NCBI GenBank assembly: GCA_964019425.1
Contig: OZ025790.1
Span: forward strand, 744,001 to 808,000
From: Flectonema sp. DT1601
Taxonomy: Eukaryota
Direction of reading: 5' to 3'
DNA: 64,000 nt
Positions 18 to 907 of the stretch are shown here, piece by piece. A program made the translations under genes and the position numbers. The notes under the pieces were generated by a model, which was not told the origin of the DNA, searched no databases, and saw only the letters and a list, made by a program, of their open reading frames with translations. How positions within the stretch are numbered: the first letter of the stretch is position 1; each line of letters starts with the position of its first letter.

Positions 18-907
18 TATAAATGTATTTTCTAGTGCCAAGTAAAAGATATGGCAATAAACGGATACCGTCCCCCAGGCCGTTCCAGTGGAGCACCAGG
101 TTGGCACAGTCGGAGGATGCGGTCCAGGTAGGTTAAGGTGGCTACCACACCCAAAAGTCCACAGCAGAGTAACAAAGTCGTGCTCGGGCCGTAAAGGCTA
201 GCGGTACGTGTTTTCGCCCGCGACAAGCCGTGTGATTACGGTACAGGACGGGGTCAACCGCACTTAACAGTCGGATTCCATTGGTACAATCAGGAAGATA
301 CCCCTACTCGCATGGAGGAGCAAGCCCCTAAGGAGATATGTGTTTTTCACAACATGACAACACAATTAACAAGAATACAGCACGGGCGTGAGGAAAAGCC
401 GTAACATGGAAAGTAGGAATAAAAATTAAAAGGTGTGAGGAAGGGTTTCATTCTCCACACTTAATGTGAAGGTGTACCAAGGATTACGCGCATGGGTTAA
501 CCGACACGTGATGAAACCAACGGGCTGGGGAGACAACAAGGGACGGAGCCGAAAACGGCACCCCCCGAAGGGGCACGCCACAAAAGAAAATAAAAACCCG
601 GGTGATCTTGTAAGGCTCCAGATCTATAAAGTTCCGGGCCGGTTCACCCCCTCTGGCAGTATGTCGTTGCTGTCGCCTGTTGGTCGTTAGACCGAAGGAG
701 CTACCGGGAAAATAAAAAGGAAAGTAACAGTCAAAACTTCGAGAGGTGACGCTCCGACCGCGCCCCGAGTTATACCAGAAAACAAAATAAAGGAAAAAGT
801 TAAACGGGATGCCAGGTTTTGTGCACCTTTTCACCCCCAGTTGGGGGTTACCCCTACATCCCACAGTAGGTAAGGCCCAAACACGCGGTCCTGGCCCCCG
901 CGGAATG
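18..907 (-). mobile_element. 890-bp non-coding insertion (putative non-autonomous SINE-like retroelement) in cathepsin L gene copy A
   Basis: Flanked by direct repeats of the protease GCNGGL codons; no credible ORF; many hairpins; 3' motifs shared with the LINE at 31576-31655. Strand inferred from those motifs. Confidence 0.75.

What the first reader, a model, noticed from the sequence alone, without database searches (positions are those of the whole stretch)
18..121. 3' ends of the short element and the LINE share positionally fixed motifs (candidate RT recognition signal)
Seen on the - strand: GGCACT ends exactly 16 nt before the TSD in both elements (34-39 and 31592-31597). It is followed by similar AT-rich tails (AGAAAATACATTTATA vs CAAAACTAATCATATT). 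Upstream, CGCATC(C/A)TCCGAC matches 12/13 (109-121 vs 31626-31638). Neither element has poly(A). Known: stringent LINE/SINE pairs share 3' tails recognised by the LINE RT. Inference: the 890-bp element is mobilised in trans by this LINE or a relative.
Basis: partly seen in the sequence, partly recalled or inferred. Interest (0 to 1): 0.85.

Follow-up and report, generated by a model that had tools for sequence, protein, structure and literature searches.

The report
Retrotransposon and passenger share RNA helix
In a likely diplonemid (marine protist) genome, a retrotransposon and an unrelated 890-base non-coding element sit at the same base of several cathepsin genes and share a small predicted RNA helix near their 3' ends, which likely lets the retrotransposon's enzyme copy and insert the passenger.

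Summary
GGCACT ends 16 nt before a 20-bp TSD in both elements, and the 13-mer matches 12/13. Only GGCACT is position-fixed; the 13-mer ends 91 versus 50 nt before the TSD. Its partner strand CTGGG(G/T)GACGG is also shared (10/11), and the two mismatches face each other (C-G versus A-U). Two such blocks arose in 1 of 20,000 shuffles of the 3' ends. One-sequence covariance models find each other's end as best non-self hit in 64 kb (E 0.04 and 0.54). Independent support: protein records show the short element after the same GCNGGL codons in three cathepsin paralogs (61-81% identical to the window's), and the APE-RT LINE there full-length or 5'-truncated at two different points. Empty sites carry one TSD copy. 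Best reading: a stringent-type, target-preferring LINE with a non-autonomous passenger. RT binding is untested, conservation in other families could not be read, and a sister LINE may be the true helper. New variant of a known kind; closest in behaviour to Ingi/RIME in trypanosome RHS genes.

The parts
18..907 (-). 890-bp non-coding short element (non-autonomous retroposon) inserted in a cathepsin L-like gene
   Evidence: Bounded by TSD copies; longest ATG-started sense ORF 34 aa; no tRNA; 2 Rfam matches at E 1.1 and 9.8, chance level
908..927 (-). 5' TSD copy of the short element (20 bp, codons of GCNGGL)
1..17 (-). 3' TSD copy of the short element (17 of 20 nt, cut by window edge)
109..121 (-). 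5' strand of shared bulged helix, short element: CG-CA bulge-TCCTCCG-AC
68..78 (-). 3' partner strand of shared helix, short element (CTGGGGGACGG)
18..39 (-). GGCACT plus 16-nt AT-rich tail, short element; GGCA is the 3' strand of a small separate predicted hairpin (52-56/36-40)
31576..38225 (-). 6650-bp APE-RT LINE, 5'-truncated (129 codons missing against full-length copies)
38226..38245 (-). 5' TSD copy of the LINE
31556..31575 (-). 3' TSD copy of the LINE
36384..38225 (-). LINE ORF1 (truncated); its stop overlaps the ORF2 start as ATGA at 36384-36387
31656..36387 (-). LINE ORF2: APE endonuclease, RT, CCHC finger, Cys/His-rich C-terminus; one frameshift near 32964 in this copy
   Evidence: intact 1576-1577 aa copies exist
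31626..31638 (-). 5' strand of shared bulged helix, LINE 3' UTR: CG-CA bulge-TCATCCG-AC
31596..31606 (-). 3' partner strand of shared helix, LINE (CTGGGTGACGG), running straight into GGCACT
31576..31597 (-). GGCACT plus 16-nt AT-rich tail, LINE; GGCACT is the base of the predicted stem
31647..31664 (-). LINE-only predicted hairpin over the ORF2 stop (GLT* codons)
   Evidence: (K/R)GLT* ends ORF2 in 4 of 4 families aligned
908..1436 (-). 5' half of interrupted cathepsin L/cruzipain-like gene (copy with short element)
38226..38754 (-). 5' half of interrupted cathepsin gene (copy with LINE)
30756..31575 (-). 3' half of interrupted cathepsin gene (Peptidase_C1, DUF3586)

Best explanation
The 890-bp element is a non-coding passenger that is likely copied and inserted in trans by the APE-RT LINE family found at the same cathepsin site, and the predicted bulged helix shared by their 3' ends, followed by GGCACT and a 16-nt tail, is likely the RNA signal its ORF2 protein recognises. 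Shown: the same insertion base, the same 20-bp TSD, empty alleles, repeated insertions in diverged paralogs, LINE 5' truncations, and shared sequence blocks with one compensatory pair. Inferred: both RNAs are made in the sense of the host gene cluster; ORF2 binds the helix CG[CA]UC(C/A)UCCG...UGGG(G/U)GACG whatever the inner loop length; the APE domain nicks a preferred site resembling the GCNGGL codons; reverse transcription starts 16 nt past GGCACT; a second nick 20 bp away gives the TSD.
For: Same site and 20-bp TSD for both elements; empty allele with one TSD copy in runs X1 and X2 (loose end at 908). The short element's first 25 codons follow GCNGGL in 4 protein sequences from three paralog groups, 61-81% identical to the window's paralog (P0135 on 2 contigs, P0276, P0149, P0267). 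The LINE follows GCNGGL full-length in 3 of 10 ORF1-cluster members (two paralogs), 5'-truncated in P0270 (starts near 35305), and truncated at another point in the window; different truncation points mean separate events. Helix: 9 of 9 pairs valid in both, 8 identical including two G-U wobbles, 1 compensatory, same CA bulge. Two collinear blocks in 1 of 20,000 shuffles of the last 150 nt; among 1678 real 150-nt tiles of the window only the LINE end matches. One-sequence covariance models give reciprocal best non-self hits (E 0.54 and 0.04). Mean pair probability 0.87-0.93 in local folds. APE and RT catalytic motifs present; intact ORF2 copies exist.
Against: Only two 3' ends were read, so covariation rests on one pair. 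The two blocks are not independent once both fold, so the shuffle figure overstates significance; with no 3' prior the two-block pattern appeared in 21 of 300 shuffles. CM E-values are modest and the model windows were chosen after I saw the helix. In the short element the helix is lost in global folds of 300 nt or more (mean 0.04 to 0) and when the 17 TSD bases are appended (0.06); in the LINE it drops to 0.40 with read-through. Fold z-scores are -1.1 to -1.9 except the LINE's last 90 nt (-3.2). Shared sequence is about 30 nt in pieces, shorter than the 50-80 nt of the plant and algal pairs described in PMC3747384. GGCACT lies in different predicted helices in the two elements.
Confidence: 0.66

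Rival explanations
1. A sister LINE family with the same target preference, not this family, mobilises the short element; the helix is an inherited signal that both keep.
For: Similarity is confined to the helix and the last 22 nt, with a longer inner loop and about 30 extra nt in the short element. Related families at 48-52% identity exist in diplonemid-type records, and all four end ORF2 in (K/R)GLT*.
Against: Only one LINE family was seen after GCNGGL: all 5 LINE-type continuations (3 full-length, 2 truncated) come from this family. TSD length and the distance from GGCACT to the junction are identical.
Confidence: 0.17
2. The LINE moves the short element, but the 3' likeness is incidental. 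Site choice and priming come from the endonuclease and from read-through RNA that carries the downstream target sequence.
For: Each feature alone has p about 0.004-0.02. Appending the TSD to the short element's RNA removes the helix in the fold prediction. Annealing of element RNA to the nicked target is proposed for SART1Bm (PMC7265360, passages).
Against: The compensatory pair, shared bulge and shared wobbles, the reciprocal best CM hits and the location in an 80-nt 3' UTR are hard to get by accident.
Confidence: 0.11
3. The short element inserted once and was spread among cathepsin paralogs by gene conversion or tandem duplication; it is not an active passenger.
For: Its translated 5' end is identical in all 4 records. 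Depth in X1 and X2 is low (3-8, against 24 and 10 for the empty-site contig), and no other flanks were listed (128 loose-end rows not shown). The last 19 residues before the site are identical in the three paralogs.
Against: The paralogs differ from each other up to 20 residues before the site, and uninterrupted paralog C has the same 19 residues, so a conversion tract would have to be under about 57 nt on that side. The first insertion still needs a TSD-making enzyme at the LINE's site.
Confidence: 0.06

Closest known systems
Ingi/RIME (Trypanosoma brucei) and L1Tc/NARTc (T. cruzi) at the RHS retrotransposon hot spot
   Same: Euglenozoan APE-type LINE and a non-coding short partner insert at one site inside a protein-coding multigene family and split it in two halves (PMC7563717, passages). 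L1Tc and NARTc share only 13 nt at 85% at the 3' end (PMC1874656, passages).
   Different: Ingi has RNase H, a shared 77-nt 5' signature and a poly(A) tail (PMC12278014, passages). Here ORF2 has no RNase H match, there is a separate ORF1, the translated 5' ends of LINE and short element are unrelated, there is no poly(A), the TSD is 20 bp and the target is a cathepsin motif.
Stringent LINE/SINE pairs (eel UnaL2/UnaSINE; monocot L1/SINE2; Chlamydomonas L1-1_CR/SINEX-3)
   Same: Shared 3' region that folds into a stem-loop with compensatory changes (PMC3747384, passages).
   Different: Those share 50-80 nt and end in poly(A) or short repeats. Here about 30 nt in three blocks with variable spacing, no repeat tail, no tRNA/7SL/5S head found, 890 nt long, and target-preferring.
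Target-specific APE-type LINEs of the R1 and Tx1 clades (R1Bm, SART1Bm, Keno)
   Same: Two ORFs, APE plus RT, sequence-preferring insertion in repeated genes; SART1Bm proteins move any RNA with its 3' UTR in trans (PMC7265360, passages; PMC4640811, passages).
   Different: Their targets are rDNA, snRNA, tRNA or telomeric repeats. The RT here groups apart from the branch holding Danio TX1 and rat L1; no R1 reference was in the tree.

Membership tests
Stringent LINE / non-autonomous partner pair | Related 3' end sequence | tested here: met
   12/13 and 10/11 blocks plus 14/23 at the end. Shorter than in classic pairs.
Stringent LINE / non-autonomous partner pair | 3' stem-loop kept by compensatory change | tested here: inconclusive
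   Predicted in both with one compensatory pair, but from two sequences only and unstable in global folds of the short element.
Stringent LINE / non-autonomous partner pair | Shared insertion hallmarks (TSD, target) | tested here: met
   Same 20-bp TSD and same base in several paralogs.
Stringent LINE / non-autonomous partner pair | LINE protein needs the 3' signal and moves the partner in trans | not testable with these tools
   Needs a retrotransposition or binding assay.
SINE in the strict sense | Head derived from tRNA, 7SL or 5S RNA with internal Pol III promoter (definition recalled) | tested here: not met
   ARAGORN 0 genes; Rfam only 2 chance-level matches at E 1.1 and 9.8. A very diverged head cannot be excluded.
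Ingi clade with RIME/NARTc | RNase H domain in the autonomous element | tested here: not met
   P0006, P0007, P0008: RVT_1 and Exo_endo_phos only; some distant relatives do have RNase H.
Ingi clade with RIME/NARTc | Shared 77-nt 5' signature between LINE and short element | tested here: not met
   In the same frame after GCNGGL the full-length LINE reads RELCICLLG and the short element TFRGGQDRV; DNA of the full-length 5' end was not available.
Ingi clade with RIME/NARTc | Poly(A) tail | tested here: not met
Ingi clade with RIME/NARTc | RT groups with Ingi/L1Tc | not tested
   No Ingi reference sequence was in hand for the tree.
Tx1 clade | RT groups with Tx1/L1 | tested here: not met
   Tree of 48 of 49 RT domains: this family is separated by a 100/98 branch from the 33 rows that hold Danio TX1 and rat L1 (midpoint root, long branches).
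R1 clade | RT groups with R1/SART/TRAS | not tested
   No R1 reference among the fetched proteins.

The most novel reading that the evidence does not exclude
An unclassified diplonemid LINE lineage targets a conserved coding motif of a protease family, enters in frame so that the host gene's start codon translates its ORF1, and recognises its template by a structure-only signal of about 25 paired bases plus a 22-nt end, which a wholly unrelated 890-nt RNA has adopted to ride along.
Probability: 0.25. Interest if true: 0.78.

Novelty: new variant of a known kind. Interest (0 to 1): 0.56.

Why it matters
Most described target-specific LINEs use RNA genes or simple repeats; a pair that repeatedly hits the same codons of a protein family has its clearest precedent in trypanosome RHS genes. 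The two 3' ends form a natural comparison that cuts the candidate RT signal down to a nine-pair bulged helix and a 22-nt end, so a direct mutant-and-rescue test can be designed. It also gives a concrete LINE/passenger pair for diplonemids, whose transposons the D. papillatum genome paper says still need rigorous identification (PMC10161547, passages).

Tried and rejected
No whole genome is held, so copy numbers and flanks come from protein records and two contig sets. Related loci: none in viral contigs (30 candidates, 0 confirmed) or metagenome contigs (598 candidates, 0 confirmed). Helix pattern scan: 0 in viral contigs; 43 in metagenome contigs, none homologous to LINE, cathepsin or short element, 17 of 43 with a pairing variable position, judged chance. 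Rfam on the LINE end: 2 chance matches. Canonical intron: no GT-AG cut within the TSD restores the frame (read from sequence). Internal deletion of the LINE: no BLASTN match better than E 2.5 between the elements. HDV, hammerhead or pistol ribozyme: no Rfam match, and hand inspection against recalled layouts did not fit. Alternative pairing GUCGGA/UCCGAC in the LINE is possible but has no local counterpart in the short element. Structure prediction of the ORF2 C-terminus failed (pLDDT 38.5), so no fold search was run; ESM Atlas hits were all under 0.9. The search over 50% representatives was not available. One RNA-library contig (X3) covers 96-297, which does not show transcription. Earlier-findings look-ups returned nothing. 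Literature searches that found no description of this pair; the library lacks most subscription journals and Repbase, and I opened no supplements, including the repeat section of PMC10161547's additional file.

Full report
Setting. The window is eukaryotic, with intronless genes on the - strand and a 37,318-bp tandem unit (4 differences in 25,776 bp compared) holding a cathepsin L/cruzipain-like gene and a giant RTX-repeat gene. The closest named relatives are diplonemid: Flectonema neradi for the LINE proteins (48-50% identity) and Diplonema papillatum for the cathepsin (64%). The host is therefore likely a diplonemid; no whole genome is held.

The two insertions. Both cathepsin copies are split at the same base, after the codons for GCNGGL. 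One holds an 890-bp element (18-907), the other a 6650-bp element (31576-38225). Both are flanked by the same 20-bp repeat, of which 17 nt of the short element's 3' copy lie in the window. Contigs of runs X1 and X2 show the empty allele with one copy of the repeat, so it is a true TSD. The long element is a LINE: ORF1, then ORF2 starting in an ATGA overlap, with APE, RT and a CCHC finger. This copy has one frameshift near 32964 and lacks 129 codons at the 5' end; intact ORF2 copies 99% identical exist in a cluster of 12 members. The short element is non-coding, has no tRNA or Rfam match above chance and no extended similarity to the LINE.

Checking the observation. Every coordinate given is right. 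Alone, each feature is modest: p 0.008-0.02 for the fixed hexamer, 7 of 2000 to 23 of 500 for the 13-mer depending on how much 3' sequence is allowed, 1 of 3000 for both. Only GGCACT is position-fixed; the 13-mer ends 91 and 50 nt before the TSD.

Local folding pairs the 13-mer with a downstream strand in both elements, and that strand is itself shared, 10 of 11. The helix has nine pairs around a CA bulge. Eight are identical, including two G-U wobbles; the ninth is C-G in the short element and A-U in the LINE, so the only mismatch in each block faces the other. The enclosed stem-loop differs in sequence and is 11 nt longer in the short element. In the LINE the helix runs straight into GGCACT; in the short element about 30 extra nt intervene and GGCA closes a separate small hairpin. 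Two such collinear blocks arose in 1 of 20,000 shuffles of the last 150 nt, 3 of 5000 of the last 300 nt, and 21 of 300 when the whole short element was shuffled against the whole LINE; of 1678 real tiles of the window only the LINE end matched. Covariance models built from one element alone ranked the other element's end first among non-self hits in the window, at E 0.54 and 0.04. Against this: the blocks are not independent once both fold; one compensatory pair is thin; the model windows were chosen after the fact; and the helix in the short element has mean pair probability 0.88-0.93 in local folds but near zero in global folds or with the TSD appended.

Independent evidence of shared machinery. 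Gene calls in public assemblies read through from the host gene into the inserts. Of 10 members of the ORF1 cluster, 3 begin as cathepsin and switch to the LINE right after GCNGGL (two paralogs, 63% identical), 4 begin as another gene and switch after EWQGEL, and 3 start internally. Among the cathepsin-like proteins fetched (11, 120, 43 further members), 4 continue after GCNGGL into the short element's first 25 codons, in three paralog groups 61-81% identical to the window's, and 1 (P0270, a fourth paralog) continues into a LINE truncated near 35305. Different truncation points show repeated LINE insertion at this base; both truncated junctions allow a 2-nt AA microhomology (for the window copy inferred from the Lys codon). 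The second target can match the cathepsin site at 8 to 12 of 18 bases depending on codons, which suggests a sequence preference rather than strict specificity. I cannot tell whether these records come from one assembly or several, or whether some are allelic.

What could not be tested. No DNA of other families was reachable, so conservation of the helix across families is open. A hint: ORF2 of four families at 45-48% identity ends in (K/R)GLT* after a variable linker, and in this LINE those codons form a hairpin just upstream of the helix. X1 and X2 carry the short element's 3' end joined to the TSD with 2 differences each, at places not shown.

Mechanism. Most likely (0.66) this LINE's ORF2 binds the bulged helix and the GGCACT end in either RNA, nicks the preferred site and primes reverse transcription at a fixed distance, with no poly(A). 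Target, TSD and shared structure are observed or computed; binding, nicking and priming are inferred from general LINE biology. Rivals: a sister LINE as helper (0.17), incidental likeness (0.11), one insertion spread by conversion (0.06).

Comparison. It works like a stringent LINE/SINE pair (PMC3747384, passages) and behaves like Ingi/RIME in RHS genes (PMC7563717, PMC1874656, PMC12278014; passages). It fails Ingi's defining features as tested (RNase H, shared 5' signature, poly(A)), shows no small-RNA head of a strict SINE, and its RT falls outside the L1/Tx1 branch. PMC4640811 (passages) places reported target-specific APE elements in the Tx1 and R1 clades. The clade stays unassigned. My searches (listings only) found no description of this pair; Repbase and most subscription papers were not searchable. 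PMC3118788 (passages) added nothing used here.

Verdict. Real feature, interpretation supported and sharpened from fixed motifs to a shared structure plus a shared target. New variant of a known kind; interest 0.56.

Noticed in passing
P0122, P0127, P0128, P0124, P0125, P0129, P0130 (relatives of window 36384-38225): Full-length LINE copies fuse ORF1 in frame to the host gene at both target types, with 101 stop-free codons before the element's first Met; a Flectonema ORF1 (P0123) begins with a weak LRR_5-like stretch (E 0.003). The host start codon may be used, but gene callers favour such fusions.
   Followed up: partly
window 6436-28509 (-) and 43754-64000 (-): 7357-aa intronless ORF with many RTX calcium-binding nonapeptide repeats (Pfam E 7e-136), tandemly duplicated with the cathepsin gene; an overlapping 554-aa ORF at 28358-30022 has no Pfam match and may be its N-terminus across a frameshift.
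   Followed up: no
window 36384-36387 (-): ORF1 stop and ORF2 start overlap as ATGA, suggesting termination-reinitiation.
   Followed up: no
window 31659-32100 (-): ORF2 ends in a Cys/His-rich domain conserved in four families, with no Pfam match and no confident model.
   Followed up: partly
P0009 residues 45-118: Weak Josephin match (E 0.012) at the N-terminus of a Flectonema ORF2; a Josephin-like protease is recalled from Dualen elements, not checked.
   Followed up: no
window 800-907 (-) and 420-800 (-): The short element starts with a GC-rich multibranch fold (z -1.7) and is built of structured blocks separated by T-rich tracts, which might act as trans-splicing or polyadenylation signals.
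   Followed up: partly
P0299, P0275, P0148: Other broken cathepsin gene calls (a 3' half only in another cluster; two early stops) of unknown cause.
   Followed up: no
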